Assembly (NCBI GenBank): GCA_041650735.1
Contig: JBAZKP010000001.1
Location: 310,754-374,753 of the forward strand
Reading direction: 5' to 3'
Source of the DNA: an archaeon
GTDB taxonomy: Archaea > Iainarchaeota > Iainarchaeia > Iainarchaeales > JAAZKV01
DNA length: 64,000 nucleotides
Each line of letters starts with the position of its first letter. Position 1 is the first letter of the stretch. Positions 4,140-59,758 of the stretch are shown here, piece by piece. A model generated the notes under the pieces. It had not been told where the DNA came from and made no database searches. It saw only the letters and a list, made by a program, of their open reading frames with translations. Position numbers and translations under genes: made by a program.

Positions 4140-4243
4140 AAAAAAACCTTTTTGCTTAGTAATAAATAAATTCAAAACAATTAAAAATGGTCCTAATTGC
4201 TTTGTCGTACCAATTAAAAAAGCTGTTAAACTGTAAATATGTT

Positions 4244-5652: not shown

Positions 5653-5747
5653 AAATCTACCTACTTTAAAAAGCTTTTTTAGCTTTATTCCTTCTATTGG
5701 CTACGCGAATTTTAATTGATTTGTTCGCATAATTGCTAGGTGATTCT

Positions 5748-5990
5748 ATGAATGACGAAATTCAGCAAATAATGCAAGAAATACTTGCTGATAGAGCCGT
5801 TCCGAGAAACATTAGGGCGAAAGTTGATGAAGCATTGGCAAAAGTAAAAAGAGGGGATGTCACTGCTTTAAGTGAAGCAATCTACTTTTTGGATGACATA
5901 AGTAATGATGTCAATATGCCTGATCATACAAGAACAGATTTATGGCATGTGATTTCTCTGATAGAAGCAGAGAAAGAAAGAATGAAGTAG
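5748..5990 (+). CDS. UPF0147 family protein
   Basis: DRAVPRNIR and LDDISNDVNMPDHTRTDLW pattern typical of archaeal UPF0147; GGTGA SD upstream. Confidence 0.8.
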   Translation: MNDEIQQIMQEILADRAVPRNIRAKVDEALAKVKRGDVTALSEAIYFLDDISNDVNMPDHTRTDLWHVISLIEAEKERMK

Positions 5991-6059
5991 AAAGCAGAGC
6001 TAATCAACAAAAAACAAATCTAATTCTTTTCGGTGCCAAAAAAATAAGTAAGTGATTTA

Positions 6060-7586
6060 ATGGCAGAAACTTTTGAACAAGAAATACTTTCTTTTGCAGA
6101 ACAAACAGGGTTAATGCTTTCAAAAGAATCAATAAACCTTTTGGCTAAAAATGATTCCTGGAAAAAAATACTTGAAGAACTTGCGGAAGAAGGCCATTTT
6201 TTTGTAGAACCTAGTGCACTTGAAAAAAAACTTGCAAGAACAAAATTATCACAGATAGTAGAGGAAGTTGAGGTCAGAAAAGCTTCTTTTATGGCACAGG
6301 CGCGAGACAGAGCGCCCAATTTTCGTGTAATGACAGAATATGATGTTACTGGGCAAAGTAGTTCGGAAGGAAAAGTTGCTGATTTTTTAAGATTATTCAG
6401 GAGTAAGTTTGAGTTATTATCAAACATGCTAAAAACAAGGCATAATATGACTCCAATTCCAATAAAAAATCTTGCGACTGTGCGTGATAGAGAAAAAGTT
6501 GATGTAATAGGAATGGTTAACAAGAAATGGATTACAAAAAAAGGGCACACTGCATTTGAGATAGAGGATATGGAATCAAAATGTATTGCTTTAGTAATGG
6601 AGAAAGAAAAAGAAACAGTACAGAAAGCGGAGCATATCCTTGAGGATAATGTTGTTGGAATAAAAGGAACTAAATGGGGAAAAGATTTTATTATAATTAA
6701 AGAAGTTTTTTGGCCTGATATGCCAATAAGGACAGCAAAATTAATCAATGAGGATGTTTTAATTGGAGGGATAACTGATTTGCATATTGGGAGCAAATTA
6801 TTTTATGAAGAGCAATTCAAAAAACTCTTGGATTATATTAATGGTAAAGGGTTAAGTGAAAAACAACAAGAAAGAGTTGGAAAAATACAATACTTATTTG
6901 TAACAGGGGACAATGTAGCAGGGATAGGAGTTTATCCTGGGCAATTAGACGATTTAATAATAAAAGATGTTTATGAACAATACGCAAAATTTGAGGAATT
7001 AATGCTCCAAATTCCTGAATATATACATGTGTTTGTTTGTCCTGGGCAGCATGATGCAGTAAGAAGAGCAGAGCCCCAACCAGGAATTGCAAAAGAATTT
7101 GTTCCGCGCTTGTCAAAATTAAGAAATTTTCATTTCATCTCCTCCCCTTCCTGGGTGGAAACAGAGGGGCTGAAGAATCTTATTTACCACGGAGCAAGTG
7201 TTCATGACCTAATTAGTTCAGTGAGTTTTCTTGAAATGACAAAACCACAAGACGGAATGGTTGAGTTATTAAAAAAACGTGACCTAATGCCAAAATATGG
7301 GGGCAAGAACCCTTATGTTCCTGAAGGAAAAGATTATATGGTGGTAAAGGAAGAACCGGATCTTGTATGGATAGGGGATATGCATCATAAAGGATATGCA
7401 ACTTACAGGGGGACAACAGTAATTAATTCAGGGTGTTGGGAAGCTCAAACGGATTTTCAGAAAAAAATAGGGCACATTCCAACTCCGTGTGTATTTCCAA
7501 TAATTAATTTGAAAAACAGGCAAATAACTGAAGTGCATTTTTCAAAAGAAACCGTGGAAAGAGATGTTACTGAAGGGATGCAGTGA
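6060..7586 (+). CDS. polB: DNA polymerase D small (proofreading exonuclease) subunit DP1
   Basis: OB fold then calcineurin-like phosphoesterase motifs DLHIGS, GDNVAG, PGQHD, YHG, GDMHH, NSGCW. Confidence 0.92.
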   Translation: MAETFEQEILSFAEQTGLMLSKESINLLAKNDSWKKILEELAEEGHFFVEPSALEKKLARTKLSQIVEEVEVRKASFMAQARDRAPNFRVMTEYDVTGQSSSEGKVADFLRLFRSKFELLSNMLKTRHNMTPIPIKNLATVRDREKVDVIGMVNKKWITKKGHTAFEIEDMESKCIALVMEKEKETVQKAEHILEDNVVGIKGTKWGKDFIIIKEVFWPDMPIRTAKLINEDVLIGGITDLHIGSKLFYEEQFKKLLDYINGKGLSEKQQERVGKIQYLFVTGDNVAGIGVYPGQLDDLIIKDVYEQYAKFEELMLQIPEYIHVFVCPGQHDAVRRAEPQPGIAKEFVPRLSKLRNFHFISSPSWVETEGLKNLIYHGASVHDLISSVSFLEMTKPQDGMVELLKKRDLMPKYGGKNPYVPEGKDYMVVKEEPDLVWIGDMHHKGYATYRGTTVINSGCWEAQTDFQKKIGHIPTPCVFPIINLKNRQITEVHFSKETVERDVTEGMQ

Positions 7587-10500
7587 TTTTTATGGATAAA
7601 GAAATCAAAAAACAAGAAACCCAAAATGTTGGACAAGTTTTGGGTTCTTTACAAGAAAAAAAATTTGATACCCCCTTTACTGAAGAGGAAAAGAAAAGAC
7701 AAAGTACTGTAAAAAAACTTTCCTCTGCTGAAATGATTTCACAAGAAATTCATTTTCCTGCCGAACCACAGGTAAAAGAGTATTTTAAAATTATTCAAAA
7801 AGAAACAAGCAAGGTATTTTCACTTGCAGAGAAAGCAAAAAAAACAGGTTGTGATTTAACTGATTTTGTTGAAGTAACTCCAGCTGTTGATCTTGCAGAT
7901 AGAACTGAAATAATTATTGGTTTGCCGGGTCTTGCAAAAAGATTCAGGGAAATTTTTGCTGAAGCAAAAGACAGAAGAAAAGCATATTTTATTTTGTTTA
8001 GAGAAATTTTGGAACAAAAATGGTGGAAAATTCCTGATGATGCTAAGAGAATTGAAACAGCAATAAAAGCATGTTTGTTAATTGAAACGGAAGGAGTTGT
8101 TGTAGCACCACTTGATGGAGTGCCAAAAGTAGAGATTAACACTAACCCTGATGGGTCAAAATATGTTGATATTTATTTTGCTGGCCCAATAAGAGCGGCA
8201 GGAGGTTCATCAACAGTTGTGCCATTGCTTCTTGCAGATTATGGAAGAACACTAATGGGGCTAGACAGATACAAACCTACCCAAGATGAATTGGAAAGAT
8301 ATGTTGAGGAAATAGGAATATACCAAACAGAGGTTATCTCAAGACAATACACAATGAAGGATGAGGAAATAAGAATCATAATAACTGGTTGCCCGGTATG
8401 CATTAATGGTGTGCCAACAGAAGAAGTAGAGGTATCAGCACACAGAGACCTTGCAAGAGTGCCAACCAACAGAATACGAGGCGGAATGGGGCTTGTTGTA
8501 GCAGAAGGATTAGCACTCAAAGCACTATGGGTAATGAAGACAGCAAAAGAGCATGGATTAAACTGGGACTTTTTAGAAAAAATAGTTAAAGTGGAAAAAA
8601 CTCAGACAAAAATTGAAATAAAACCAAACAAAGCATTTCTTGACAGACTAGCTGCAGGAAGACCAATACTTGCTTATCCAAGTGCGTGGGGTGGATTCAG
8701 ATTACGTTATGGAAGGGGGAGAAACACTGGAATAATGGCAAAAGCAATTAATCCCGCAACAATGATTTTGGTTGATGAATTTATTGCCGTAGGCACACAC
8801 GGAAGAATAGAACGACCTGGAAAAGCAACACAATTTTTTCCCTGCACAACAATTGAGGGGCCCGTGGTTTTATTAAAAGACGGAACGGTAATGCGAGTCA
8901 ATACAAGAGAAGAAGCTGAAACTGTAAAAGCACAATTAGAAAAAATAATTTACTTAGGAGATTTGCTTGCAACATTTGGAGATTTCAAAAAAAGTGCCCA
9001 CCCATTAATTCCAGTTGGTTACTGTGAAGAATGGTGGCAACTTGAACTCAAAAAAATGTGCGAAGAAGAATCAAAGAAAAATAAACTCAAATCACTTGGG
9101 CTCGAGAATATTCTTATTGTGCGTATTGGGGAGGTAAGAAAAATTTCTGAAAAAGATGCATTAATACTTAGTCATGAACTTAATCTTCCATTACACCCTA
9201 ATTTTATTCACTTTTATAAAGCGTTAAACAAAAAAGAAATAGTAATGCTCCGTGAATATTTACTTACAGCAAAAATAGAAAAAAATTCTGACAATTTAGT
9301 AAAATTAATTGCTGAAAACAAACACGAAGAAAAAAAGTTGCTTGAACGAATTGGACTCCCTCACAAGATTCAAGAAGGATTTATTGTTATTGATGAAAAT
9401 GCTTTAAGTTTAATAGAAACATTTGCACTTGAAACAAAAAAGCAAAGCACCAGTGAAAATGTCCTTGACTATTTATCAGAAATTTCTGGAATTACAATAA
9501 AGGACAAAGCAGGTTCGTTCATTGGTGGAAGAATGGGCAGGCCAGAGCAGGCAAAGCCAAGACAAATGAAAGGAAATCCACATGTATTATTTCCGATAGG
9601 ATTGAAAGGGGGGAGCACAAGAAGCATAAACAAAGCGATTGATGAGAATTACAATGAAAGCGGAAAAGTAAATGTTGAAATAGCTGAATATTACTGTGCT
9701 CAGTGCAAAAAAATTTCCACAAATCATTTATGCACAACATGCAATATTATTGGGGCAAGGCTGAATTTTTGCAAACATTGCGGCAAATCAGTTACCGGAG
9801 AAAACTGTGGGATATGTGGAAACAAAACAGTTCGTGCAGGTGAACATGAAGTTGATTTGCGTACATTAGTTGAAAAAGCCCAGAAAAATATTTTCGAACC
9901 CGTGCTCTCTGATACAATTAAGGGCGTAAAAGGAATGATTGCTGAAGTAAAAGAAGTTGAGCCGCTTGAAAAAGGAATTCTCCGAGCAAAACACGATATA
10001 CATATGTTCCGTGATGGCACCTCAAGGTTTGAACTGCTTAATGCAGGAATAACTCATTTCAAGCCAACCGAAATAAATCTCAGCGTTGAAAAAGTAAAAG
10101 AGCTTGGCTATGTAAAAGATATTTATGGGAAAGAAATAACTGATACAAATCAAATGATTGAAATTTATCCTCAAGACATTGTTGTAAATGAAACGTGTGG
10201 TGACTGGCTCCTCAAAGTAAGCAGATTTTGTGATGATTTACTTGAAAAATTTTATAAGCAAAAAAGATTTTACAATGCAAAAACAAAAGAAGATTTAATA
10301 GGACACATAGTTTTAGGTCTTGCTCCACACACCTCCGCAGCAGTAAATTCAAGAATATTAGGGTACACAAAAGCACGCCTTGGCTTCGGTCACCCATATT
10401 TTGTATGCGCAAAGAGAAGAAACATTGATGGAGACCAGGATTCACTTCTACTCTTAATGGATGCACTGCTTAATTTTTCACAAAAATATTTATCGACAAA

Positions 10501-38493: not shown

Positions 38494-40989
38494 GTGTCCA
38501 AAGGAAAAAAAAATAATAAATCTGTTTTTTTCGAAAATCTTTTAGCCCAAGCAACAATAGAATATCTAATTATAATTGGTGTAATAGTAATTATTTCTTT
38601 AGCAGTTGTTAGTTTAGTTGTTACTCAAACAGATTCAACAGGAAGCATTTCTAGTTCTGGCACCAGATTGAGCAATGCAAGCGAAGAAGTTAGTCTTACT
38701 GAACTTATAATTGATGATACAGAAAATGCTTTGCTTACTATAAAAAATAATTCACGCGCCCGTTTTTATGTAACAGGAATTAATATTGGGGGCACTGTAA
38801 GTAATTATAATGAGTTGATGCGTGTTGGAGAAAAAAAAGTTTTTTCCTTAGATACTAATGGTAGTAGTTGTTCCTGTGCAAATACAACAAGTAATACTAA
38901 ACAATGTGATATTGATGTAAACACATTGTCAGTTTATGGATTAACTCATGTTCATTACTTATCCCTGATAGGTAATTGTACTCAGGAAGCAAGCCCGGTT
39001 GATTTGAATGGGGTTGTCCAGCCTATTGCAGCAGCTTTTTTTTCAACGGATTTTACTTATGACCCTGATTTATCAGAGTTAGTAGAAATTGTTGATGGAA
39101 ACTATGTAATGACTGATTCTAACTCACAACTTGTTTCTGTAATTGATTTGCAATTAGTGGATATAATTGCTAATGATATTTTTAGTTATACTGGAGCAGA
39201 CCAAACATTTACTGTTCCTGCAGGGATAACTTCCATTGATGTAAAACTTTGGGGCGGCGGTGGGGGCGGGGGCGCTATTGGTGGTTGGAGTTATGGGTTT
39301 CCGGGAGGAGCTGGAGGATATGCTGGAGGAACACTAGCGGTAACACCTGACCAAAATATTACTATAATGGTTGGGGCAGGAGGAAATTCAGGAACTGTTC
39401 CAAACTCAAGCCCTAATTATGGTGGAGGAGCCAGAAACTGTAACACAGGGAGTGATTGCAGATACGGAGGACAAGGAGGAGGAAGATCAGAAGTAATTGT
39501 TGGTGAAACTAATTTTATTATTGCTGGTGGTGGGGGCGGGGGTGGATCAAGTAGAGCTTCAACCGGACAATTTGGTGGAGCAGGAGGAGGAAGTTATGCA
39601 AGAGATGGAACCTCATATACTGCTGCTTGTAAAGGACTAGGAGCTACATATTTAGTTCCAGGTGGTGCAACATCAGGATGCGCTAATGCACAAGGAGAAG
39701 CAGGGACACAATACTTCGGAGGAAATCCAGCATCTAATGCTTATGGTGGCTCAGGAGGAGGAGGTTATTTTGGGGGAGGTGGCGGAGGTTACGGAGAACC
39801 CAATGATATGGGTGGGGGCGGTGGAGGAAGCAGTAATGTAATCGGTCCCTCAATTACAACTGTTGGTGATTACACAATACAAACTTTTACTAATAGCGGA
39901 AACTTTATTGTACCCTCAGGGAGCACAAATGTAGAAGTACTAATTGTCGGAGGCGGCGGAAGTGGAGGAGGAAGACATGGTGGTGGTGGAGGTGGAGGTG
40001 GAGTTTTACATTTAACGGATGTACCAGTCTCTACTGGAAGTTACTCAATAGTTGTTGGAGCAGGGGGGCCTGCTGTTGGCGGAACTAGTATTGATGGAGT
40101 TAATGGGGAAGACAGTTCAGCTTTTGGTGAAACCGCGAAAGGCGGAGGAAGAGGAGGATCATATTGCTCAGGAACTGTAGATTTAAATGGAGGAAGTGGA
40201 GGAGGAGCTGGTCACCAAGATTGTGGAAATACTGCAGGAGTAGCAACACAAGGACAACCTGTTTCTCACACAGGAACAGGATACGGAAATAATGGAGGCG
40301 CTAGTCCAACTGGAAGCAATGAAGGTTCAGGAGGAGGAGGAGCAGGAGCAGTTGGAGAAAATTCTATTGGTGATGTATATGGCGGTGCTGGTGGAAATGG
40401 AATTCTAATTAATATTACAGGAGAAGATTATTACTGGGCAGGGGGAGGAGGCGGTGGCGGTTGGACAGAACCAGCAGGCAACGGCGGACTCGGCGGAGGA
40501 GGTGGCGGCGGCGGAGCAAATGGTGGCGCAGCCGGAACAGGGGGAGGAAGTGCACTTAATAGTGGAGCAACAGGTAGCAATACAACTGCATGCAATGGAG
40601 GAGCAGGTGGCGCAAACACGGGGGGTGGAGGAGGAGGATCAGGACAATGGTGTGATTGCGGATGGTATGGATATAGTGGGGCAGGAGGCTCAGGAGTTGT
40701 AATAATAAAATATTTAACTAATTCAATTCCAACTAATAATTATAATGAATCACTAACAGGATGGACTAATTTATCAACAATAGCAGGAAATGGAATTATT
40801 CCTGGAAATTCTTCTGACACTAATAGAGGAACAGCAGGAAATGGTGGAGCAATAGATACAGTAGGTAATTCTGGCAGAGTAGTTATTTCTTACCCAGACC
40901 AAGAAATAGTAACGTATTTAGAAACAGGAACTCCTGATTCAGGAATTGATATAAGCGAAGGATACATAGCACTAGGTGGTAACGAATGA
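38494..40989 (+). CDS. Class III signal (pilin-like) surface protein with two glycine-rich domains
   Basis: AQATIEYLIIIGVIVII N-terminus; two TF...VxxxGGGGxGG...GxVVIxY glycine-rich domains. Confidence 0.75.
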   Translation: MSKGKKNNKSVFFENLLAQATIEYLIIIGVIVIISLAVVSLVVTQTDSTGSISSSGTRLSNASEEVSLTELIIDDTENALLTIKNNSRARFYVTGINIGGTVSNYNELMRVGEKKVFSLDTNGSSCSCANTTSNTKQCDIDVNTLSVYGLTHVHYLSLIGNCTQEASPVDLNGVVQPIAAAFFSTDFTYDPDLSELVEIVDGNYVMTDSNSQLVSVIDLQLVDIIANDIFSYTGADQTFTVPAGITSIDVKLWGGGGGGGAIGGWSYGFPGGAGGYAGGTLAVTPDQNITIMVGAGGNSGTVPNSSPNYGGGARNCNTGSDCRYGGQGGGRSEVIVGETNFIIAGGGGGGGSSRASTGQFGGAGGGSYARDGTSYTAACKGLGATYLVPGGATSGCANAQGEAGTQYFGGNPASNAYGGSGGGGYFGGGGGGYGEPNDMGGGGGGSSNVIGPSITTVGDYTIQTFTNSGNFIVPSGSTNVEVLIVGGGGSGGGRHGGGGGGGGVLHLTDVPVSTGSYSIVVGAGGPAVGGTSIDGVNGEDSSAFGETAKGGGRGGSYCSGTVDLNGGSGGGAGHQDCGNTAGVATQGQPVSHTGTGYGNNGGASPTGSNEGSGGGGAGAVGENSIGDVYGGAGGNGILINITGEDYYWAGGGGGGGWTEPAGNGGLGGGGGGGGANGGAAGTGGGSALNSGATGSNTTACNGGAGGANTGGGGGGSGQWCDCGWYGYSGAGGSGVVIIKYLTNSIPTNNYNESLTGWTNLSTIAGNGIIPGNSSDTNRGTAGNGGAIDTVGNSGRVVISYPDQEIVTYLETGTPDSGIDISEGYIALGGNE

Positions 40990-43900
40990 ATAAAATAAAA
41001 ATTATTTTAATTTTACTTTTTTTATTATCACTTAATACAAGTGTTTTAGCAGTTGCCGAAGGATGTTACACTTCAAGTGGAGGATATAGTTGGCGTTATT
41101 CATCAGGCTCAGAATCATGTGATACAGTATGCGCAGGGTTTGGAGGAATAGATCCAAATAATCCTTATTGTACAATGTATGATCCTGGATGCGAAGCATG
41201 TCTTTACTTTAACCCTGGTGCTTCATGTGTTGATGGAGACATGGGAGAAGGACCAACTTTTAGTGGAAGCTGTAATGCATCCGGATGGTATGCAATGGAT
41301 TGCGCTATATATGAACCTAGTTATATTAGGTTATGCACTTGTGCTACCACTTGCTTCACCCCTTTAGCAGTAATACTAACAACCCCTTATGATAACCAAG
41401 TCTTCAATGACACCACGGGATTAAATCAAACACTTTCATGTGAAGCAGAAGGAACTAATGGGATAGAAACAATTACTCTTCATGTTCGAGATTCATCTTT
41501 AGTTGAAGTTTATAATGAACCAGTTGCAGTATCCGGAACAGAGGTTACCCAAAATTTTAATTATACTTTTCCATCAGCAGCTCCTTATTCATGGGCATGC
41601 GAAGCATGCAACACAGCTGAAGGATGTATTACAACAAGTTACAATGACATAAATTTTGCTCCAGTTGAAACTATGACAAAAACTTTTGCAGACACAACCC
41701 AAAAAGCATGGAATACAAGCAGTGGATCCCAAACACCACTCTCCCCAGGCAATGCTTCTTATGTGGAATATACTTCAGAACAGTACACTGCCGCAACAAC
41801 CGCAGACAGTACTAGAAATGCTTGGCATGGAGCAATAGAAGCTTCAAGTTATGAAAACTTGTTATTCAAATTCACACTTAATCAAAGCATAAAAGCATCT
41901 AACGTAAAAGAACTTTTATTTAACTGGGTTGGGTATGATGAACAATCAATGACTGGCATGTGGCACGCGAATAGTGCAAATAAAAGCTTTAAAATTTTTA
42001 TTTGGAATTTTAATAGTTCAGCTTGGGAAGAATTATACTCAACAACGACATCAAAATATAGTGATCAAAATTATTTATTCCCAATTATTGATGGATCCGA
42101 GCCAAATGTAAGTACTGTAATAACAAATTACATTGGGTCATCAAAAGAAATTTATTTTGCAATCTCAGGGGATTTTTATGGAGGAGCATATGCGGGAAGC
42201 TGTCCTTACTTGTTCCTCTCTGATGGAAATGAGTATAAATTTCACACAGATTTAATGGGGGCACCCCTTGCAAAAGACGCTAATATCTTCAAACCAGAGT
42301 ATTACAATGGAGGAATTTATTCGCTAGGGGATTTTACTCCAGTTAATGGAACCTATAAATTAAAAGTAAGAGAAACAATTGAAGAAGCAGATTATTTTGA
42401 TGAAGCAAAACTAATTTTGGTTGATACCCCAAAAGGATATGAAGTAATGAATAATTGGAGCCTTACCTCTCTATTAAGATATTCTTCCCCAAAAGATTTT
42501 GTAACAATTAAAGATCCTAAAAACCCAATCTCTGCGATTGATAAAAAAGGAAATAATGTGCTTGAAGAGATTACAAAAAATGATGGAATCCCAGTTCCTC
42601 TTTCATCCAAGGATGATAAAACTAGCGTAATAGTTGATTTTGGGAATATTGAAAGACCTGAAAATGCAAAACTCATTCTTACTGAATGGTCTTATTATGT
42701 AAACAGAATTAATGCTGATAAATCCCCTTATTCAATGGGAACAACAATTGAAATGATGAATGACAAAAATGAGTGGGTGGTAAAAAAAATCATTGGAAGA
42801 AACGGAGGATTTAATAGAAGCCTAATTTTTGATGTCTCAGATATTTTGGAAAAAAATAATACTAAAATGAGAATAACCTTATACAATCAACCGACTTATA
42901 TTGGAATCCTTGACCAGGTAATGCTTGATGATTCTGTCCCAGTGGATATTAATGTAACATATGTTGATGCGAGCGTTGCTGATTTAGGTTATGCCGGTGC
43001 AACTAATTACACTTATCCATCACTAACCCAAGGAGGAAGCTCTGATGATGCAAAAAATCCAGTTGACCCCAAATCTCTAATGTATGGAAATTTTACAAAA
43101 TACGGTGATGTAAAACCATTGCTAGAAAAAACAGATGACAAGTTTGTCATAATGGCTTCCGGTGATGAGTTAGCACTTGAATTCAAAGAACCTGAAAAAT
43201 CAATTGGTGCGGAGAGGCATGCTTTCCTTTACGCGGATGTATTTTATAGCATTAAAAGTACGGTAAAAAAATTTTTAACGGACAATATTTATCCTTTGCC
43301 TTTCCATGGAATGAAAACCTATTCTTATCCCGAAGAACAATGGAAATATAGATGGGATTCAAATTACAGAGAATATTTAGATACATGGAATACAAGAACA
43401 ATTGAGAAAACAAAAGGTACTCATACAATGTATGAAAATTCTTCCCAACTCAGCCTCAAGTATATTCCTGAATACGCTTCATCAGGAACTTTTACTTCAA
43501 ACAAAATAAATCTAAAACAAGCAAAAAAATTATCTTTAATTACCTTTACTGCAGAGACCCCAGTAGGAACCACAGTTAAATTCCAAATAAGGTCGGCTGA
43601 TACTAACGAAGGACTTGATACAGCAACATGGTTAGGTCCTGATGGAACAGGAGAAACTTATTACACAACAACTAATCAAGAAATAAGTTCAGTTCATGGA
43701 AATCCAATATGGGCGCAATGGAAAGCTTATTTATCAACAACAGTATCAACTCTCACTCCAAAATTAACTGCTGTAGATTTAGTTGTCAAAAATAAAGTGG
43801 ATGAAACCAGTTGGGCTACTTTTATTACAGGAAACGGAACAAGCACAGTGTGGAGCGCTTTTACTCCTGTTCAATATTTGAACGGAGGAAACATTGATTG

Positions 43901-44099
43901 GTATTACTCCGCTTACAATTCAGTTGAGGAACCTTGTTCACTTTTAAGCGAATGGACTTTATTAGAAATGACAGAAGGCACAGGTCAATTAGGAGGAGTT
44001 ACAAGTAATTATTTATGCCTCAGAGCATTAATGCATCCTGATGAAAATGCAAATAAAAGCCCTGAAATAACAAGCATGAGTATTGGCGTTCAAAGGTAA
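40986..44099 (+). CDS. Large secreted mosaic protein with an ASPIC/UnbV-protein-like C-terminal module inserted
   Basis: Signal peptide, Cys-rich N-terminus; GSCPYLF...EEADYFDEAKL...GDELALEF...WNTR module at 42195-43397; later SGTFTS...WLGPDG...TPKL module; ATGA coupled to upstream gene. Confidence 0.7.
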   Translation: MNKIKIILILLFLLSLNTSVLAVAEGCYTSSGGYSWRYSSGSESCDTVCAGFGGIDPNNPYCTMYDPGCEACLYFNPGASCVDGDMGEGPTFSGSCNASGWYAMDCAIYEPSYIRLCTCATTCFTPLAVILTTPYDNQVFNDTTGLNQTLSCEAEGTNGIETITLHVRDSSLVEVYNEPVAVSGTEVTQNFNYTFPSAAPYSWACEACNTAEGCITTSYNDINFAPVETMTKTFADTTQKAWNTSSGSQTPLSPGNASYVEYTSEQYTAATTADSTRNAWHGAIEASSYENLLFKFTLNQSIKASNVKELLFNWVGYDEQSMTGMWHANSANKSFKIFIWNFNSSAWEELYSTTTSKYSDQNYLFPIIDGSEPNVSTVITNYIGSSKEIYFAISGDFYGGAYAGSCPYLFLSDGNEYKFHTDLMGAPLAKDANIFKPEYYNGGIYSLGDFTPVNGTYKLKVRETIEEADYFDEAKLILVDTPKGYEVMNNWSLTSLLRYSSPKDFVTIKDPKNPISAIDKKGNNVLEEITKNDGIPVPLSSKDDKTSVIVDFGNIERPENAKLILTEWSYYVNRINADKSPYSMGTTIEMMNDKNEWVVKKIIGRNGGFNRSLIFDVSDILEKNNTKMRITLYNQPTYIGILDQVMLDDSVPVDINVTYVDASVADLGYAGATNYTYPSLTQGGSSDDAKNPVDPKSLMYGNFTKYGDVKPLLEKTDDKFVIMASGDELALEFKEPEKSIGAERHAFLYADVFYSIKSTVKKFLTDNIYPLPFHGMKTYSYPEEQWKYRWDSNYREYLDTWNTRTIEKTKGTHTMYENSSQLSLKYIPEYASSGTFTSNKINLKQAKKLSLITFTAETPVGTTVKFQIRSADTNEGLDTATWLGPDGTGETYYTTTNQEISSVHGNPIWAQWKAYLSTTVSTLTPKLTAVDLVVKNKVDETSWATFITGNGTSTVWSAFTPVQYLNGGNIDWYYSAYNSVEEPCSLLSEWTLLEMTEGTGQLGGVTSNYLCLRALMHPDENANKSPEITSMSIGVQR

Positions 44100-44136: not shown

Positions 44137-45240
44137 ATGTATGATACAAATCAAAATAATCAAAACCAAGAAATAGGGGCTGTTGGCGGGGAACAGAGAA
44201 GCAGTGCTCCTCCAGAAGTGATTCAACCTGAAAAACCAATTCAAGAAGAAAAAAAAGAGACAAAGAATAAAATAATTCTAATTTTGGCAATCTTATTAAT
44301 CCTTGTTTTTTTAGTTTGCGCGATAATACTATTTGTTTTCCCATCGTTATTGCCTTTTAATGAAACCCTCAAATCCCAATACTCTTGCGTTGGAGAGACA
44401 TTTGAAAACTCTGTTCTCTGCCCAGATTCAGATAAAAATTTAGTTAGTGATGTTACCACAGTTTTATCTGGTTCCTGCACTAATATAAAAAAATGTGAAT
44501 ATATATGCAAAGAAGGATATGAATATGAAAATTCTGTTTGTGTAAAAAAATACTGTGTTCTTTCAAATAATTTAGATCTCGCCGGATCAATTGTTGCAAT
44601 ATCCTCTTCAGGCAGAGACACAAATTTTGGGGTATCGCCTTTAGGTGCAACAGCCCCATATTTCCTTATTTTTGACAACAATTTGCTTATTGAAACCGCA
44701 ATAAATCCTTACTTAGAAAAAAATCCTGACCAAGTTGTTGCTGAATGGTTAGCTGGGAAAGGGGTAAAAAAAATAGTGGTAAGCGACGCCACCACTTTAT
44801 TTGAATCAAACCTAAACAAAAATAAAATAGCTTGCTTAAAAATGAGCGGCAAAATAAGTGATTTAGTTGGGGCAGGTCAGAATTTATCAGTTTACAGTTA
44901 TGCATCAAACAACTGCAAAAGCGTTGATTCAATTAGCCTTGCAGGGCCAAAGCTTGCTATCACAACTATTCGCCCCGATTTGAATAGCCCAATCTCATCA
45001 AGCCCTAGTTCAATAAAATATTTCTTAATATTTGAAAATGGCAAATTCGTTGAAGCAATAAAAAATGATTTTAATATTTTAAGCAAGAATTTTGAAAGTG
45101 ATATTGCGCAAATGCTTTTCAAAAAAGATGTTAACAGAGTGGTTTTAGGATACAGAAATATTCCACTTGTTATTGAATTAATGCGCCCAAAATTAGAGTG
45201 TGTGGTAGCCACAGGATTGGTCAGCGAAGTTATAAAATAA
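44137..45240 (+). CDS. Membrane-anchored protein with a Cys-rich module and two NifB/NifX-like domains
   Basis: TM at about residues 47-70; C-x-G...C...C...CEYxC module; VAI...APYFLIFD...NPY...WLAGKGVKKIV pattern twice. Confidence 0.65.
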   Translation: MYDTNQNNQNQEIGAVGGEQRSSAPPEVIQPEKPIQEEKKETKNKIILILAILLILVFLVCAIILFVFPSLLPFNETLKSQYSCVGETFENSVLCPDSDKNLVSDVTTVLSGSCTNIKKCEYICKEGYEYENSVCVKKYCVLSNNLDLAGSIVAISSSGRDTNFGVSPLGATAPYFLIFDNNLLIETAINPYLEKNPDQVVAEWLAGKGVKKIVVSDATTLFESNLNKNKIACLKMSGKISDLVGAGQNLSVYSYASNNCKSVDSISLAGPKLAITTIRPDLNSPISSSPSSIKYFLIFENGKFVEAIKNDFNILSKNFESDIAQMLFKKDVNRVVLGYRNIPLVIELMRPKLECVVATGLVSEVIK

Positions 45241-45244
45241 AAAT

Positions 45245-46609
45245 TTGAGAATGATGCTTATGAAAAAGAAAAATACAAAAAAATTAAAAGCTCCTAAAAA
45301 AAGATCTTTGTTAAAAAGGGGCAAATTAAAAAAATCTGTAATAGCTTCGCACTTCTTACTTAAAAAAATAATTTTGCTTAGCTTTATTATTTTAGTAATA
45401 ATAATTGCGATTGGGATATCTGTTCAGCAAAACAAACCAACTATTGGGCAATTTGTTTGTAAGGGCATTGTGCCTAAAAATGCGGTTCTTTGCTCAAATG
45501 ATGACATAGGATTGATAAAAAATACAAGCATAACCCTGGCTCCTTTTTGTACCTATGAAACAAAATGCCAGTATATTTGTGGTCAAGAATATAAAAAATG
45601 GGAAAATAATTGTGTTGACTTAAATGCACCTATTAATTTTTGTGTGGGCGATGTGCCTAAAAATGCGGTTCTTTGCGAGGAGGATAATTCAAATTTAGAA
45701 TGGAGTTCCCTGAATACATTGGTTTCTTCTTGTACTCCTGATAAAAAATGCGAATATGTTTGCGAATCCGGATTTATAAAAGAGGGGGCACGTTGCCTTA
45801 GAGAATATTGCGAACCTGTTGAAGACCTTAATTTTTCTGGTTCAGTAATTGCAATAACTTCTCAGAATGGAGATTTTTCTTCAGGAGTATCTCCATTGGG
45901 GACAAAAACAGCATTTTTTTTAATATTTAATAATAACAAATTTATTGAGGCTGCAAAAAATCCTTATTCTCAAGAAGAAAGTGATGTTGAAAGAAATGTT
46001 GTCCAGTGGCTGGTTGATAAAAATGTGGAAAAAATTGTTCTCGCTGATGCAGATATTGAGTTTGCTTCAAAAATAGGGGCAGCTGGAATAAAATGCTTAA
46101 AAATAACTGGTAAAATAGCAGCTATTATTGGGCAAGAGGAAAATATTGATACAAACAAACCCGTTTCATATAATGGGGGCCAGCTTGTTATTAATGGAAA
46201 AGATTTTTTTAAAGAGGTAATTGAAGAAAGTGTTATCCAACTAAGCAAAGGAGGAACCCAGAGCTCGGAAACTTTTTATTTGAATCAAGGGGACGAAATT
46301 ACTAGCAAGGATTTTAATGGAAAAGGAATAAACCAGGAATCAATTGTTTTTGCACTCTGCCCTTGCAGCAATTTATCTTCAATACAAATAGATATAGGAT
46401 TAAGCGATTCAAATGATTATTCTTACTTGAAATGGAAAACCAGTGAAGAAATAAAATTACAAGCAACAATTATCTGCGATAATAATGTCAGCACATTAAA
46501 AGAAACACTTAGTTCAATCGGAAAAGTAGTTTCAATCGACCCCGCAGGGTTATGCAAACCAAATACTTCGCCGTGCTGTGTGGTAATGCCAAGGAAATCT
46601 ATACAATAA
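45245..46609 (+). CDS. Paralogous membrane-anchored protein with two Cys-rich modules and one NifB/NifX-like domain
   Basis: Basic N-tail, TM, repeated CxGxVPKNAVLC (DNA repeat GTGCCTAAAAATGCGGTTCTTTGC at about 45470 and 45653), IAI...AFFLIFN...NPY...WLVDKNVEKIV. Confidence 0.65.
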   Translation: MRMMLMKKKNTKKLKAPKKRSLLKRGKLKKSVIASHFLLKKIILLSFIILVIIIAIGISVQQNKPTIGQFVCKGIVPKNAVLCSNDDIGLIKNTSITLAPFCTYETKCQYICGQEYKKWENNCVDLNAPINFCVGDVPKNAVLCEEDNSNLEWSSLNTLVSSCTPDKKCEYVCESGFIKEGARCLREYCEPVEDLNFSGSVIAITSQNGDFSSGVSPLGTKTAFFLIFNNNKFIEAAKNPYSQEESDVERNVVQWLVDKNVEKIVLADADIEFASKIGAAGIKCLKITGKIAAIIGQEENIDTNKPVSYNGGQLVINGKDFFKEVIEESVIQLSKGGTQSSETFYLNQGDEITSKDFNGKGINQESIVFALCPCSNLSSIQIDIGLSDSNDYSYLKWKTSEEIKLQATIICDNNVSTLKETLSSIGKVVSIDPAGLCKPNTSPCCVVMPRKSIQ

Positions 46610-57064: not shown

Positions 57065-59758
57065 ATGCAAAAAAGAATTCTAGTACTATTTTTTGTTCTG
57101 ATACTTGCATTAACAGCTTTTGCTACTGATGGTAATAACACTGATTCAAATAGCATTGCTTGTGTTGCCGTGTATGACCCGGTTTGTGGTTCTGATGGAA
57201 TAACTTATTCAAATTCTTGTTACGCGGGATTAGCAGGAGTAAGTATTGCTTATGATGGAGAATGTACTGTTGACTCAAATGCTACTTGTACAAGGGAAGG
57301 AGAAAGTTATCCAGTTGTTCCTGGGTATAAGTGCTGCGAAGGATTAACAGGAATACAACCAACCGCAACGCTAGTTGGTGATGAATGTAAAATGATGGTT
57401 GGTTCAACCCTTTGCTCTAATTGTGGAAATGGAACATGTGAAAAATGGGAAAACAAATGTAATTGCCCAAGCGATTGTTCAAGTACGATTTGTGCAAATA
57501 CGGGCGAGGCTGTTTATATTACTGAAGATTTTGGCCCCACTTATTGTTGTAGTAAAAACGATGGAGTAAAGCCAGTTGTATTTTATAGTGAAGGTGCGTG
57601 TATAGCACCAACTAATGGGCAGAAAGGAACTTGTGTTGCTATTTGGTGGAAAACTTGTGGGGATGGATACTGTGATTCAGCAACAGAAGATAAATGCAAT
57701 TGTGAAAAGGATTGTGATAAAACTCAAAAAGAAAGAGCGGCACTTGGAGAAAAATTTGATCTCTCACAAGGAAAAAACATTATTATTTTTGATAGCAAAG
57801 AAGGCACCATTTCAAGTACTTCAGATTTATTCACAGTGCAACTTGATTCAGTAATGGAATTAAAGACGCAAGTTGAAGCATGTGCCCCTGGTGCCATGTG
57901 TCCTATTCCTGTTGATTCAATAGCAGAACTAACAGTTACAGGAATATGCAATGCTCCTGAAGGGGCTGTGTGTGGAGTTGCTGCAATGAGGGTGAAAGTG
58001 GCAATTAGGGACAAAGCGGAAATTTTTTCTGATTATGAAATAAGTTTTTTGAACTTTTCAAGCAATGTAGCAACATTTGTGGTTAAGAAAAAAATACCTG
58101 AAATTTGTCCAAGCCTTTATGACCCTGTGTGCGGTGGAAAAGAAATATGTGTTAAGTGTGCTTCAATATTAACAAGTGACTCTAATACAAGTAGTAATGA
58201 TAAGTGCCTTAATGGCGGAGGATGTTTTGTAGAGCAAAAAACTTATGCAAACAAATGCATAATGGAATTAGAGGGAGCAAAATTCCTTTACGCTGGAGAA
58301 TGTGGCGCAGCAAAAACAAATTACAGAAATGCTTATTGGCAATGCACTAATGGAAAAGAATACAAAGAAGGAGGAGAAAGTTCATGCAAACCAGAAAGCC
58401 TTTGGAGACAATATGCTGATGAATCCTGTAAAAAAGCATGTAATGAGGATTCAAATTCAACAAATGTTTCAGGTTATGAAAAATGCGGAATAAAATCATT
58501 TAGTGTTTCAAACGAATGTTCTGATAATGAATTAACTTGCGGGGGAATACAAGGAAAAATGTGCCCTGAAGGATATTATTGTGTTTACAAAGGAAATTAT
58601 CCTGATGCTGATGGAAAATGCGTAAAAAAACCTTTAGGGGATTTCTATAAAGGAGCTTATTGGAAATGCAGTAATGGGAAAGAATACAAGGAAACTTCAG
58701 AAAAGTGTTTGTCGAGTGCGGAATGGAAAAATATTGCGAGAAAAAAATGCGGAGCAATGAGTGCTAACTGCGCAACAAGCACAACCCCCACAGTTGTTTC
58801 AGTTCCACCAACAGAATCTGTTGCACAGGACCCTATACAAAGTCAAGCAGCTCCTTCAAGTCCAATCACTGCTTTTATTCTTGCAATTGTCAACCCAATT
58901 ACACAAGCTTCAGTTGTAAACCAAACAACAACTTCTGGGGGAGCAGGCGGAAATTCTGCAAACACAATAAATTCCGCAAACTCAATAAATGCAATTAATG
59001 CAAATACACAAACAGAAACTAATTGCGGTGGGGAAGTGTTTGTTTCAGAATTTCAGCTTTTTGATGAATGCACTCCAAAGGCATGCACGCATTATATTGA
59101 TATGAATGGTTGTCAGGTAAAAAAATGTGAAGGTGAAACAGAACAAAGCTATTGTCCTGGTGAATGCAGAAACCAGAATATTGATGAAATAAAAAACATA
59201 AAAGAAGAGTGTGCTAAAAACAATGGACAAGTAATCGCAAGTATTAATGAAAAAGGTTGTTCATTATATGTTTGTACAAAAAATATTGATGCAAATACGT
59301 GTATGAAAAAAGCAAGCGTGCCTGAAGAAAAATACCTTTCCTGCAAAGAAAAAGGGGGAGAATTAATTGTTAAAGAGCTTGGAAATGGCTGCGTATCTTT
59401 CATTGATTGCATAGGATCAACAAGTGATACGAACACAGTAAAAGTTCCTGAACCAACTGATTTACTTGAACTTGCATTAAAACTTGAAAACTTAAACATA
59501 GAATTAGGAAAATTAAAGGTAAAACTTACAGCAATACAAAACTATTACATTGATACAAATAATACAACTGATGCAAACAGAATAGGGAATGCAATAACCG
59601 TGCTGGTTTCAATAGAAACAAAAATTGTTGAATTAAGGGCAGAAATAAAAGAAAAAATAAATAATTTTACTGAAGAAGATGCAAGTGCTTTGAGAGAAGG
59701 AATAAGAGAAATAAAAGAAACAAAAATAAAAGAACTAGTAATAGCGTTGCTTGGATAA
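57065..59758 (+). CDS. Secreted Cys-rich protein with two Kazal-type domains and C-terminal coiled coil
   Basis: Signal peptide; CVAVYDPVCGSDGITYSNSC...YDGEC; second Kazal with insert; repeated Y(R/K)xAYWxCxNGKEYKE; coiled-coil tail. Confidence 0.8.
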   Translation: MQKRILVLFFVLILALTAFATDGNNTDSNSIACVAVYDPVCGSDGITYSNSCYAGLAGVSIAYDGECTVDSNATCTREGESYPVVPGYKCCEGLTGIQPTATLVGDECKMMVGSTLCSNCGNGTCEKWENKCNCPSDCSSTICANTGEAVYITEDFGPTYCCSKNDGVKPVVFYSEGACIAPTNGQKGTCVAIWWKTCGDGYCDSATEDKCNCEKDCDKTQKERAALGEKFDLSQGKNIIIFDSKEGTISSTSDLFTVQLDSVMELKTQVEACAPGAMCPIPVDSIAELTVTGICNAPEGAVCGVAAMRVKVAIRDKAEIFSDYEISFLNFSSNVATFVVKKKIPEICPSLYDPVCGGKEICVKCASILTSDSNTSSNDKCLNGGGCFVEQKTYANKCIMELEGAKFLYAGECGAAKTNYRNAYWQCTNGKEYKEGGESSCKPESLWRQYADESCKKACNEDSNSTNVSGYEKCGIKSFSVSNECSDNELTCGGIQGKMCPEGYYCVYKGNYPDADGKCVKKPLGDFYKGAYWKCSNGKEYKETSEKCLSSAEWKNIARKKCGAMSANCATSTTPTVVSVPPTESVAQDPIQSQAAPSSPITAFILAIVNPITQASVVNQTTTSGGAGGNSANTINSANSINAINANTQTETNCGGEVFVSEFQLFDECTPKACTHYIDMNGCQVKKCEGETEQSYCPGECRNQNIDEIKNIKEECAKNNGQVIASINEKGCSLYVCTKNIDANTCMKKASVPEEKYLSCKEKGGELIVKELGNGCVSFIDCIGSTSDTNTVKVPEPTDLLELALKLENLNIELGKLKVKLTAIQNYYIDTNNTTDANRIGNAITVLVSIETKIVELRAEIKEKINNFTEEDASALREGIREIKETKIKELVIALLG

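What the first reader, a model, noticed from the sequence alone, without database searches (positions are those of the whole stretch)
44137..46609. NifB/NifX-like domains displayed outside the membrane on Cys-rich stalks
Seen: two adjacent paralogues have an N-terminal TM, disulfide-type Cys modules (CxG...C...C...CEYxC) and three copies of a domain patterned like the dinitrogenase FeMo-cofactor family (VAI...PYFLIFD...NPY...WL...GV..IV). The usual HFG motif is replaced (PLGAT, SSPSS, PLGTK). Known: this family is normally small and cytoplasmic or fused to NifB, and binds metal clusters. Inferred: an extracellular repurposing, such as metal or cofactor scavenging or adhesion. No nif genes are nearby.
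Basis: partly seen in the sequence, partly recalled or inferred. Interest (0 to 1): 0.62.

Follow-up and report, generated by a model that had tools for sequence, protein, structure and literature searches.

The report
Surface-displayed NifX-fold domains in DPANN archaeon
Two neighbouring genes of a tiny (DPANN-type) archaeon anchor in the membrane and show, on the outside of the cell, disulfide-stapled copies of a protein fold so far known only from cytoplasmic nitrogenase-cofactor and iron-sulfur carriers; the copies have lost the usual metal-cluster-binding features, so they most likely serve as a surface binding or tethering module.

Summary
Window 44137-45240 (P1, 367 aa) and 45245-46609 (P2, 454 aa) are adjacent paralogues. 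Each has a cytoplasmic tail, one N-terminal TM helix and 6-Cys modules (one in P1, two in P2). Between them they carry three copies of a ~110-aa domain that belongs to the PF02579 (NifX/NafY/MTH1175) superfamily. Support: hhalign 99.6% (E 1e-23), AlphaFold pLDDT about 90-97, and Foldseek top hits that are all PF02579 structures.

The domain is a distinct, fast-evolving clade (SH-aLRT 99). It is sister to small cytoplasmic PF02579 proteins of the same phylum and was found only in one family of 215 genomes searched. It gained an almost invariant Cys pair. It lost the Gly-rich loops, has no His at the NifX-H35/NafY-H121 position, and is acidic. This argues against NifX-like cluster binding.

Export is supported by the signal anchors, by lipobox variants, and by Cys modules shared with adhesin-like proteins. 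A cytoplasmic derivative lacks both Cys.

The genes sit in a partly conserved cassette with a large secreted protein, and near pilin- or lectin-type genes. P2 ends in a pilin-head-like domain.

Best reading: surface tether or binding proteins of an adhesion apparatus. This is a new variant of a known fold family, and its function is inferred.

The parts
44137..45240 (+). P1, 367 aa: cytoplasmic tail, signal-anchor TM, one 6-Cys module, two NifX-fold domains
   Evidence: ORF. Paralogy to P2. AF2 model. Orthologues P0006 and P0007.
44269..44337 (+). P1 TM helix (about aa 45-67), preceded by KKETKNK
   Evidence: Hydropathy scan. AF2 helix 44-67.
44386..44541 (+). P1 6-Cys module (C84, C95, C114, C120, C124, C135)
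   Evidence: Alignment A2. The module is shared with more than 300 protein clusters.
44554..44886 (+). P1 exported NifX-fold domain 1 (aa 140-250), Cys pair C140/C233
44914..45237 (+). P1 exported NifX-fold domain 2 (aa 260-367), Cys pair C260/C355, basic (pI 9.0)
   Evidence: It forms a separate d2 subclade with SH-aLRT 100.
45245..46609 (+). P2, 454 aa from a TTG start (the database copy starts at the ATG of codon 6 and is 449 aa): poly-Lys cytoplasmic tail, TM, two 6-Cys modules, one NifX-fold domain, a C-terminal pilin-head-like domain
45356..45424 (+). P2 TM helix (about aa 38-60), preceded by a strongly basic (Lys/Arg-rich) tail
45458..45796 (+). P2 tandem 6-Cys modules (aa 72-123 and 133-184)
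   Evidence: A2. AF2 pLDDT about 90-95.
45809..46147 (+). P2 exported NifX-fold domain (aa 189-301), Cys pair C189/C284
   Evidence: Pfam PF02579, E 0.0046. 1rdu hit. AF2 pLDDT 95-98. Foldseek.
46208..46606 (+). P2 C-terminal domain (about aa 322-454, 6 Cys), homologous to the globular part of small archaeal pilin-like proteins
   Evidence: Hits P0040, P0144 and P0146. Alignment A7 (32-35% identity). Not modelled with confidence (pLDDT below 50).
40986..44099 (+). Upstream 1037-aa secreted Cys-rich protein. Its core, including aa 694-812, recurs next to TM-NifX gene pairs in other lineages.
38494..40989 (+). Pilin-type (class III signal-like AQATIEYL) glycine-rich protein. It is the first gene of the co-directional run and overlaps the next gene by 4 nt.
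   Evidence: (Gly_rich_2, E 6e-22).

Best explanation
P1 and P2 are a tandem pair of type-II (N-in, C-out) membrane-anchored cell-surface proteins of a small-genome DPANN-type archaeon.

Their ectodomains are built from two elements. The first is a widespread 6-Cys spacer module also found in adhesin-like proteins. The second is a lineage-specific, exported derivative of the PF02579 (NifX/NafY/MTH1175) alpha/beta domain. This derivative arose once from the small cytoplasmic PF02579 proteins of the same phylum. It acquired a Cys pair, one Cys in the N-terminal linker strand and one in strand beta-5, that most likely forms a stabilising disulfide. It lost the Gly-rich loops and has no cluster-ligand residues.

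It therefore most likely no longer carries Fe-S or Mo clusters. Instead it probably acts as a protein- or ligand-binding or oligomerisation module. The two anchors, one with a neutral or acidic cytoplasmic tail and one with a poly-Lys tail, may work as a hetero-pair. They would hold or present partner surface proteins at the membrane: the large secreted protein encoded just upstream, and pilin- or lectin-type adhesins.

Shown: the architecture, the homology, the predicted fold, the single origin, the loss of motifs, and the recurrence of the gene neighbourhood. Inferred: the outside location, the disulfide, and the tethering or adhesion role.
For: Homology and fold:
- hhalign 99.6%, E 1.3e-23.
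- Profile hits to 1rdu, 1eo1 and 1t3v.
- AF2 pLDDT about 90-98 with a b-b-b-a-b-a-b-a pattern.
- Foldseek top 8 and top 13 hits are all PF02579 structures, TM-score on target 0.53-0.73.

Export:
- One N-terminal TM helix follows basic tails.
- Relatives carry lipobox signals on the same ectodomain (P0004, and the 163-aa protein of G014).
- The Cys module co-occurs with PKD, Big_1/Invasin, CARDB, beta-helix and Sushi-like hits.
- 115 of 138 Cys-module proteins that start with Met have an N-terminal hydrophobic segment.

Disulfide:
- Cys1 is present in 29 of 32 and Cys94 in 31 of 32 exported copies, and both positions lack Cys in the canonical relatives.
- Cys1 sits in a short strand (E260-262 in P1, E189-191 in P2) and Cys94 sits in beta-5.
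- A TM-less WcbI-like fusion protein in G032 nests inside the exported clade and has lost both Cys.

Loss of cluster-binding features: set against NifX H35 with its positive pocket (PMC13128457) and NafY H121 (PMC8496260).

Single origin and fast evolution:
- The exported clade has SH-aLRT 99 on a 0.76 stem and is sister (support 87) to the small DPANN proteins.
- It is found only in family f1 among 215 genomes of the phylum.

Genomic context:
- In the window, four co-directional genes are separated by -4, 37 and 4 nt.
- G014 has the same order.
- The order [large-protein homologue, 46% identity, E 1e-27] then [TM + 3 NifX] then [poly-Lys TM + NifX] recurs on a distant metagenome contig.
- In G034 a homologue of the large protein's core lies about 1 kb from a TM-NifX gene.
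- Neighbours elsewhere are a Laminin_G_3 pilin-type protein, a YadA_head/Peptidase_S74 protein, a class III signal protein and a Fibrinogen_C-bearing protein.
- P2 ends in a pilin-head-like domain.
Against:
- Topology rests on the positive-inside rule and on analogy. For P1 the charge bias is weak.
- The association with the large secreted protein holds for only 4 of about 9 loci. G055 has the large-protein core but no exported NifX domain.
- Pilin-type genes are frequent in these genomes, about 20 per 0.98 Mb, so proximity is only suggestive.
- Ser28 and Asn51 are conserved in both exported and canonical domains, so a residual small-ligand site cannot be excluded.
- No partner interaction was modelled.
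Confidence: 0.6

Rival explanations
1. Extracellular metal, Fe-S cluster or cofactor capture. In this view the exported NifX/IssA-like domains bind FeS(aq), thioferrate-like or Mo-containing clusters outside the cell, in an anoxic habitat or at a host surface, and pass them on for uptake.
For: - Every characterised member of the fold binds inorganic clusters: NifX, NafY, IssA and ORP (PMC5524996, PMC13128457). ORP, NafY and NifX are among the fold hits.
- Ser28 and Asn51, conserved across the whole family, are retained.
- Assimilation of aqueous FeS clusters by anaerobic archaea is discussed in print (PMC8516115 abstract).
- DPANN archaea are auxotrophic scavengers (general knowledge).
Against: - No His at the H35/H121 ligand position in any of 32 copies.
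- The Gly-rich loops are lost.
- The domains have almost no His (0.3 per domain) and exactly two Cys, both explained as a disulfide.
- The domains are mostly acidic (median pI 4.9), whereas known pockets or tails are cationic (PMC13128457, PMC5524996).
- There is no IssA-type Gly/Arg tail.
- No transporter gene was recognised among the neighbouring genes examined.
- The beta3-alpha1 loop varies in length and sequence.
Confidence: 0.1
2. A receptor or sensor for a small organic ligand or glycan. In this view the stapled NifX-fold domains keep a pocket lined by Ser28 and Asn51 that recognises a host-derived metabolite or surface sugar, and the poly-Lys tail of P2 signals or docks inside the cell.
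For: - Ser28, Asn51 and Asp22 are conserved in loops.
- A paired architecture with distinct cytoplasmic tails is conserved in three lineages.
- Lectin-type neighbours: Laminin_G_3 and Fibrinogen_C.
Against: - No cytoplasmic signalling domain is present. The tails are only 35-45 aa of low complexity.
- Ser28 and Asn51 are equally conserved in the cytoplasmic relatives, so they may be structural.
- No ligand is known for the MTH1175-type subfamily.
Confidence: 0.2
3. The domains face the cytoplasm (N-out, C-in topology), and the Cys residues are metal ligands of an ordinary cytoplasmic cluster carrier tethered to the membrane.
For: PF02579 proteins are otherwise cytoplasmic (PMC5524996). P1's N-terminal tail is net acidic overall.
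Against: - P2 and its orthologues have strongly basic (Lys/Arg-rich) N-terminal tails ahead of the TM helix.
- Relatives export the same ectodomain with cleavable lipobox signals.
- The 6-Cys modules are shared with PKD-, CARDB- and Big_1-containing exported proteins.
- The one TM-less derivative has lost both Cys.
Confidence: 0.03

Closest known systems
MTH1175 / TM1290 / TM1816 / PH0822-type small PF02579 proteins (PDB 1eo1, 1rdu, 1t3v/1o13, 2yx6), and their small homologues in the same DPANN phylum
   Same: They share the same about 100-aa b-b-b-a-b-a-b-a fold. They are the best sequence matches (E 7e-7 and 2.8e-4; hhalign 99.6%) and the best structure matches (TM-score on target 0.62-0.73). 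They share the Ala15, Ser28 and Asn51 core positions, and they too lack the HFG His. The small DPANN proteins are the sister clade.
   Different: The known proteins are single-domain, cytoplasmic and basic. They have a GGGGAG-type loop before helix 1 and a GxxGP motif after beta-4, and they have no Cys pair. The window's domains are exported, occur 1-3 per protein behind a TM anchor, are stapled by a Cys pair, lack the Gly loops and are mostly acidic.
NifX / NafY core / NifB C-terminal domain (nitrogenase cofactor carriers; PDB 9ian_F, 1p90)
   Same: Same superfamily and fold.
   Different: - The ligand His (NifX H35, NafY H121) and the positive pocket (PMC13128457, PMC8496260) are absent here.
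- The genome has no nif genes.
- The location here is extracytoplasmic.
IssA (Pyrococcus furiosus thioferrate Fe-S storage protein; PMC5524996)
   Same: It has an IPR003731/PF02579 domain of the MTH1175-like branch and comes from a non-diazotrophic archaeal setting. IssA-like proteins with Gly/Arg-rich tails exist in the same phylum.
   Different: IssA is cytoplasmic and works through a cationic Gly-rich C-terminal tail. P1 and P2 have no such tail and are membrane-anchored, with Cys-rich ectodomains.
Modular DPANN/CPR-type surface proteins with Cys-rich spacer modules and archaeal type IV pilin-like proteins
   Same: - A signal anchor or signal peptide.
- The 6-Cys module is shared with more than 300 protein clusters carrying PKD, CARDB, Big_1 or beta-helix domains.
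- P2's C-terminal domain is homologous to the globular part of pilin-like proteins.
- Pilin- or lectin-type genes lie in the neighbourhood.
   Different: None of those proteins is known to use a PF02579-type domain as a surface module. P2 lacks a class III signal peptide.

Membership tests
PF02579 / IPR003731 (Nitro_FeMo-Co; NifX-NafY-NifB-C-MTH1175 superfamily) | Sequence match to the Pfam model at or above its gathering score (26.3 bits) | tested here: not met
   P2 scores 17.7 bits, E 0.0046, and P1 has no hit. A six-frame scan of the genome gives 21.3 bits. Relatives P0021 and P0085 carry only 'faint' precomputed PF02579 hits.
PF02579 / IPR003731 (Nitro_FeMo-Co; NifX-NafY-NifB-C-MTH1175 superfamily) | Demonstrable homology to bona fide members by profile methods | tested here: met
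   The A1 profile hits 1rdu at E 7e-7 and 1eo1 at E 2.8e-4. hhalign of the exported profile against the canonical profile gives 99.6%, E 1.3e-23 over 97 columns.
PF02579 / IPR003731 (Nitro_FeMo-Co; NifX-NafY-NifB-C-MTH1175 superfamily) | Three-layer alpha/beta fold with b-b-b-a-b-a-b-a order (ribonuclease-H-like motif) | tested here: met
   AF2 models have pLDDT about 90-98 over all three domains. Foldseek top hits are exclusively 1t3v/1o13, 2yx6, 1rdu, 2wfb, 1p90, 1eo1, 2re2 and 9ian_F. These are predictions, not solved structures.
NifX / NafY (nitrogenase cofactor chaperones) | His ligand of the HFG motif (NifX H35, NafY H121) in a positively charged cluster pocket | tested here: not met
   The aligned position is Leu, Ser and Leu in the window's three copies, and it is never His in 32 exported copies. 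Median pI is 4.9. The ligand roles come from PMC13128457 and PMC8496260.
NifX / NafY (nitrogenase cofactor chaperones) | Genomic association with nif, vnf or anf genes | tested here: not met
   There is no PF00148 (NifD/K/E/N) match in the whole 88%-complete genome. The neighbours are surface proteins.
MTH1175 / IssA-like branch | Gly-rich loop before helix 1 and a GxxGP-type motif after beta-4. IssA additionally has a cationic Gly/Arg-rich C-terminal tail. | tested here: not met
   The alignment of exported against canonical copies shows both motifs replaced. No tail is present. IssA-like tails are seen only in other, cytoplasmic proteins of the phylum.
Archaeal type IV pilin-like proteins (for the P2 C-terminal domain) | Class III signal peptide with a hydrophobic N-terminal helix directly ahead of the globular domain | tested here: not met
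   P2 has a plain signal anchor about 260 aa upstream of that domain and no QxxxEY-type motif. Only the globular part is homologous, at 32-35% identity to P0040, P0144 and P0146.
EGF-like / Sushi-like disulfide modules (for the 6-Cys module) | Canonical Cys spacing and fold (EGF: C-x-C-x2-G-[FYW]-x4-8-C; Sushi: 4 Cys plus Trp) | tested here: inconclusive
   - The spacing here is C-x3-C-x2-G-[YF]-x5-7-C with 6 Cys.
- There is no Pfam hit on P1 or P2.
- Relatives give only weak whole-protein Sushi and cEGF signals.
- Foldseek listed no match for the module.
- PDB profile hits were non-significant.

The most novel reading that the evidence does not exclude
The exported, stapled NifX/IssA-type domains are an extracellular capture device for inorganic clusters, such as aqueous FeS, thioferrate-like or Mo/Cu-S species. 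They would let a biosynthetically poor DPANN archaeon harvest pre-formed clusters from its surroundings or its host. This would be the first Fe-S or cofactor carrier fold working outside a cell.
Probability: 0.07. Interest if true: 0.85.

Novelty: new variant of a known kind. Interest (0 to 1): 0.5.

Why it matters
The PF02579/IPR003731 fold is treated in the literature as a cytoplasmic carrier or scaffold for nitrogenase cofactors and iron-sulfur species (PMC5524996, PMC8351635, PMC13128457). In this locus the same fold was recruited once, within one family of DPANN archaea, into the exported proteome. It gained a Cys pair, lost its cluster-binding motifs, was duplicated, and was shuffled with surface-protein modules.

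This gives a clean natural example of how a metallochaperone fold becomes a surface module. It also has an internal control: a lineage that returned to the cytoplasm and lost both Cys.

The locus adds a defined, testable component to the poorly understood host-contact surface of DPANN archaea: two anchors plus a large secreted partner. If the minority reading (cluster capture) were right, it would open a new route of Fe-S acquisition.

The 6-Cys module, present in hundreds of protein clusters and absent from Pfam, also deserves a family description.

Tried and rejected
- Word-indexed homologue searches were nearly blind here. P2 found only itself. The TM+2xNifX alignment recovered only two of its own members. 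The exhaustive HMMER search and the whole-genome searches were needed.
With P1 alone it found nothing in genome contigs. Organism names for the relatives were therefore not obtained.
- Pfam and NCBIfam give no family for the Cys module, for P2's C-terminal domain or for the 1037-aa neighbour. The PDB sequence search of the 1037-aa protein was empty.
- Foldseek listed no match for the Cys module. P2's C-terminal domain was not modelled with confidence (pLDDT below 50).
- An RNase-H-like nuclease role was rejected. The conserved positions are Ala, Ser, Asn, Leu and the Cys pair, with no conserved acidic catalytic set.
- A chance pattern or an annotation artefact was rejected. The ORFs are intact and conserved as a pair in a congeneric genome, and the homology statistics are strong.
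- Literature searches for an exported or surface PF02579/NifX domain found none. This is absence within the held library only.
Full report
WHAT IS THERE

They close a run of four + strand genes separated by -4, 37 and 4 nt:
- 38494-40989, a glycine-rich protein with a class III (pilin-type) signal-like AQATIEYL N-terminus (Pfam Gly_rich_2, E 6e-22);
- 40986-44099, a 1037-aa Cys-rich protein with a cleavable-signal-like N-terminus;
- P1;
- P2.

The window is archaeal. It carries the archaeal helicase domain 4, a RuBisCO large-subunit homologue and FKBP26. It has 32-42% GC and comes from a 0.98-Mb, 88%-complete genome, so it is DPANN-like.

ANATOMY

P1 and P2 are paralogues: 41% identity over 178 aa, E 2e-42. 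Each has one strongly hydrophobic N-terminal helix, at about aa 45-67 in P1 and 38-60 in P2. The helix is preceded by KKETKNK in P1 and by a very Lys/Arg-rich tail in P2.

A 52-aa module with six invariant Cys (C-x10-C-x18-C-x5-C-x3-C-x10-C) follows, once in P1 and twice in P2 (A2). After it comes a ~110-aa domain, twice in P1 and once in P2 (A1).

Each domain copy starts with a Cys about 12 residues before strand 1 and has a second Cys in the last strand: C140/C233 and C260/C355 in P1, C189/C284 in P2.

P2 has an additional ~135-aa C-terminal domain with six Cys.

IS THE DOMAIN A NifX-FAMILY DOMAIN?

Yes at the superfamily level, although Pfam alone does not say so. Pfam gives P2 17.7 bits (E 0.0046, cut-off 26.3) and gives P1 nothing. 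Stronger tests agree:
- A profile of the three copies finds the PF02579 structures 1rdu/TM1290 (E 7e-7), 1eo1/MTH1175 (E 2.8e-4) and 1t3v/TM1816 (E 0.81), and nothing else.
- A 28-copy profile of exported domains (A5), compared with a profile of canonical proteins that includes those three PDB sequences (A9), gives hhalign probability 99.6%, E 1.3e-23, over 97 columns.
- AlphaFold2 models built with homologue alignments give pLDDT about 90-98 for all three domains, with b-b-b-a-b-a-b-a order.
- In Foldseek against the PDB, the top 8 hits (P1) and top 13 hits (P2) are exclusively PF02579-fold structures: TM1816, PH0822, TM1290, the orange protein ORP, the NafY core, MTH1175, TA1041 and NifX from the NifEN-NifX complex. 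TM-score on target is 0.53-0.73.

HOW THE EXPORTED DOMAIN DIFFERS FROM THE FAMILY

I aligned 32 exported copies, from the window, related genomes and metagenomic clusters, with small canonical proteins from the same phylum.

The canonical proteins have a GGGGAG-type loop before helix 1, a GxxGP-type motif after strand 4, and no Cys pair. They are basic, with median pI 8.8.

The exported copies differ as follows:
- Both Gly motifs are replaced by variable polar or acidic loops.
- They carry the Cys pair (29/32 and 31/32).
- They average 0.3 His per domain.
- They are mostly acidic, with median pI 4.9 and net charge -3.

The His of the HFG motif is the cluster ligand in NifX (H35, in a positively charged pocket; PMC13128457) and in NafY (H121; PMC8496260). 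It aligns with Leu, Ser and Leu in the window's copies and is never His in any exported copy. The nearest canonical relatives (TM1290, MTH1175 and the small DPANN proteins) also lack it, so the loss of His pre-dates export.

Positions shared by both groups are Ala15, Ser28, Asn51 and Leu66.

ORIGIN AND DISTRIBUTION

A maximum-likelihood tree of 52 domains puts all exported copies in one clade (SH-aLRT 99) on a long stem (0.76). That clade is sister (support 87) to the GGGGAG-type small proteins of the same phylum, and its terminal branches are long.

Among 215 genomes of the phylum, matches that start at the first Cys and lie in ORFs of 196-457 aa occur only in the window's own family: genus g1 (G000, G002, G014, G016, G018) and genus g5 (G027, G032, G034). 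The distribution within the family is patchy.

Elsewhere only cytoplasmic forms occur: small single-domain proteins, IssA-like proteins with Gly/Arg-rich tails, and two-domain fusions.

The exhaustive search of 1.84 billion representatives found about 11 clusters carrying the exported domain. These include TM+2 and TM+3 domain proteins without Cys modules (P0021, P0085, P0125, P0133, P0147) and a lipoprotein-type form with four Cys modules (P0004).

The window's genome has no canonical PF02579 copy and no NifD/K/E/N-type protein.

ARE THE DOMAINS OUTSIDE THE CELL?

This is inferred, but from several independent lines.

(i) The proteins have signal-anchor architecture with basic N-terminal tails. 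The bias is strong for P2 and its orthologues (P0003, and the second gene of L037) and weaker for P1.

(ii) The same Cys-module-plus-domain ectodomain occurs behind lipobox-type cleavable signals (LLSGC in P0004; FLSGC in the 163-aa protein of G014).

(iii) The 6-Cys module is by far the most widespread part. Most of the 337 hits match through it, and the best 150 hits contain 199 tandem-pair segments. Its partner domains are PKD, Big_1/Invasin_D3, CARDB, Ig-like, beta-helix and weak Sushi/cEGF signals. Of the 138 such proteins that start with Met, 115 have an N-terminal hydrophobic segment.

(iv) There is a natural control. G032 encodes a 403-aa protein without any TM segment. It has a WcbI-like N-terminal part (weak Pfam hit, E 2.7e-4, below the cut-off) fused to a domain that nests well inside the exported clade. 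In that copy both Cys positions are substituted: GMKSYSIGG where its exported relatives have GIKCYSVGG.

This co-loss fits a disulfide that is needed only outside the cell. So does the placement of Cys1 in a short strand (E260-262 in P1, E189-191 in P2) and of Cys94 in beta-5.

GENOMIC CONTEXT

- In the congeneric genome G014 the order is the same: Gly-rich protein, then a 1374-aa orthologue of the large secreted protein (62% identity, with an added Fibrinogen_C-like N-terminal domain), then a lipoprotein-type Cys-module gene, then the P1 orthologue (P0007), then the P2 orthologue (P0003).
- A short metagenome contig from a clearly different lineage (L037) shows the same core order. The 3' end of a gene is 46% identical (E 1e-27) to aa 694-812 of the window's large protein. 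It is followed by P0021 (TM + 3 domains), and then by a second TM-NifX protein with a poly-Lys tail like P2's.
- In G034 a homologue of the large protein's core lies about 1 kb from a TM-NifX gene.
- At the other loci the large protein is absent, but the neighbours are again surface or adhesin types. G002 has a 1338-aa pilin-type protein with Laminin_G_3 domains immediately upstream. G032 has a YadA_head + Peptidase_S74 protein immediately downstream and a second adjacent TM+2xNifX paralogue. G027 has a class III signal protein.
- Pilin-type ORFs number about 20 per 0.98 Mb in the window's genome, so one within 6 kb is expected by chance about one time in five. Finding one at four independent loci is suggestive, not proof.
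- P2's own C-terminal domain is 32-35% identical to the globular part of small pilin-like proteins (P0144 and P0146, with a GQAFSVFELLIA-type N-terminus) and of a lipoprotein-like protein (P0040).

MOST LIKELY MECHANISM

P1 and P2 are membrane-anchored surface proteins. The 6-Cys modules act as short rigid spacers. The stapled NifX-fold domains serve as binding or oligomerisation modules, not as metallocluster carriers.

The conserved pairing suggests a hetero-pair that tethers or presents partner surface proteins of an adhesion or host-contact apparatus. The pairing has one anchor with a neutral or acidic cytoplasmic tail and one with a poly-Lys tail, often placed behind the same large secreted protein.

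I give about 0.85 to 'exported, disulfide-stapled PF02579-fold domains', about 0.45 to the specific tether/adhesion role, and 0.6 to the statement as a whole.

Rivals:
- A small-ligand or glycan receptor (0.2).
The missing ligands, lost loops, acidity, and absence of any recognised transporter gene among the neighbours examined weaken it.
- An inverted, cytoplasmic topology (0.03).

COMPARISON WITH WHAT IS KNOWN, AND NOVELTY

In the papers I could search, the family is described only as cytoplasmic: NifB/NifX/NafY cofactor carriers, IssA thioferrate storage, ORP, and small proteins of unknown function (PMC5524996, PMC8351635, PMC13128457, PMC8496260). Searches for PF02579, IPR003731 or NifX together with DPANN or surface contexts returned nothing relevant.

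The window's domains are members of the superfamily by homology and predicted fold. They are not members of NifX/NafY or IssA in the functional sense, because the defining ligand, pocket, tail and gene context were tested and not met.

I class this as a new variant of a known kind: a known fold in a new cellular compartment, with a new stabilising feature and a new architecture. Its function is unproven and its taxonomic range is narrow.

LIMITS

- Relatives have no organism names.
- The structures are predictions.
- The Cys-module fold and P2's C-terminal domain remain unidentified.
- Partner binding is untested.

Noticed in passing
L036 (G032:C9) 3490-4701, minus strand: A 403-aa protein with no TM segment has a weak WcbI-like N-terminal part (E 2.7e-4, below Pfam's cut-off) fused to a domain of the exported NifX-type clade. 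Both conserved Cys are substituted in that copy. It looks like a secondary return of the exported domain to the cytoplasm, and it sits next to sugar/polysaccharide-type genes.
   Followed up: partly
window 45458-45796 and 44386-44541; P0002-P0150: The 52-aa 6-Cys module (CxGxxPxN..C..DD..L...C...KCEYxCxxGY......C) is not in Pfam or NCBIfam. It occurs, usually in tandem pairs, in hundreds of 50%-identity clusters of proteins up to about 3000 aa, together with PKD, CARDB, Big_1 and beta-helix domains. It appears to be an undescribed, widespread surface-protein module. Within the window's own genome it occurs only in P1 and P2.
   Followed up: partly
window 46208-46606 (P2 aa about 322-454); G000:C16:337-1495: P2's C-terminal domain belongs to a small family that ends in ...PCC(V/L/I)(V/M/I)xx(K/R). 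Otherwise it is found as the globular part of about 170-aa pilin-like proteins (GQAFSVFELLIA N-terminus) and of a lipoprotein-like protein. Two pilin-like ORFs with the same type of N-terminus sit side by side on contig C16 of the same genome. Whether they share P2's C-terminal domain was not checked.
   Followed up: partly
window 43465-44099 (aa about 828-1037 of the 1037-aa protein): The last about 200 aa of the large secreted protein form a separate module. It recurs at 28-48% identity in many giant ORFs (594-2155 aa) of related genomes, including six copies in G019 and four in G057. It is a shared C-terminal cassette of surface proteins.
   Followed up: no
L017 (G014:C20) 4913-9037, minus strand: The G014 orthologue of the large secreted protein carries an extra N-terminal fibrinogen-C-like (lectin-type) domain (Pfam Fibrinogen_C, 28.1 bits, above the cut-off), which is unusual for an archaeon.
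   Followed up: no
L029-L032 (G102, G200, G201, G202): Other members of the phylum encode cytoplasmic PF02579 proteins with long Gly/Arg-rich tails (GRGFGRGRG...), the hallmark described for the thioferrate storage protein IssA. L025-L027 encode two-domain cytoplasmic fusions with an HFGHAPFF second domain.
   Followed up: no
window 57065-59758: An 897-aa ORF has Kazal-type serine-protease-inhibitor domain hits near its N-terminus (Kazal_2, 28.1 bits; Kazal_1, 27.5 bits, both above their cut-offs) and a weak APP copper-binding-domain hit. Kazal domains are unusual in archaea.
   Followed up: no
window 45245-45355; L017 1256-2230 (P0003); L037 1966-2748: In three lineages the second gene of the TM-NifX pair encodes a 30-70-aa poly-Lys/Arg cytoplasmic tail, whereas the first gene's tail is neutral or acidic. 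The asymmetry is conserved and unexplained.
   Followed up: partly
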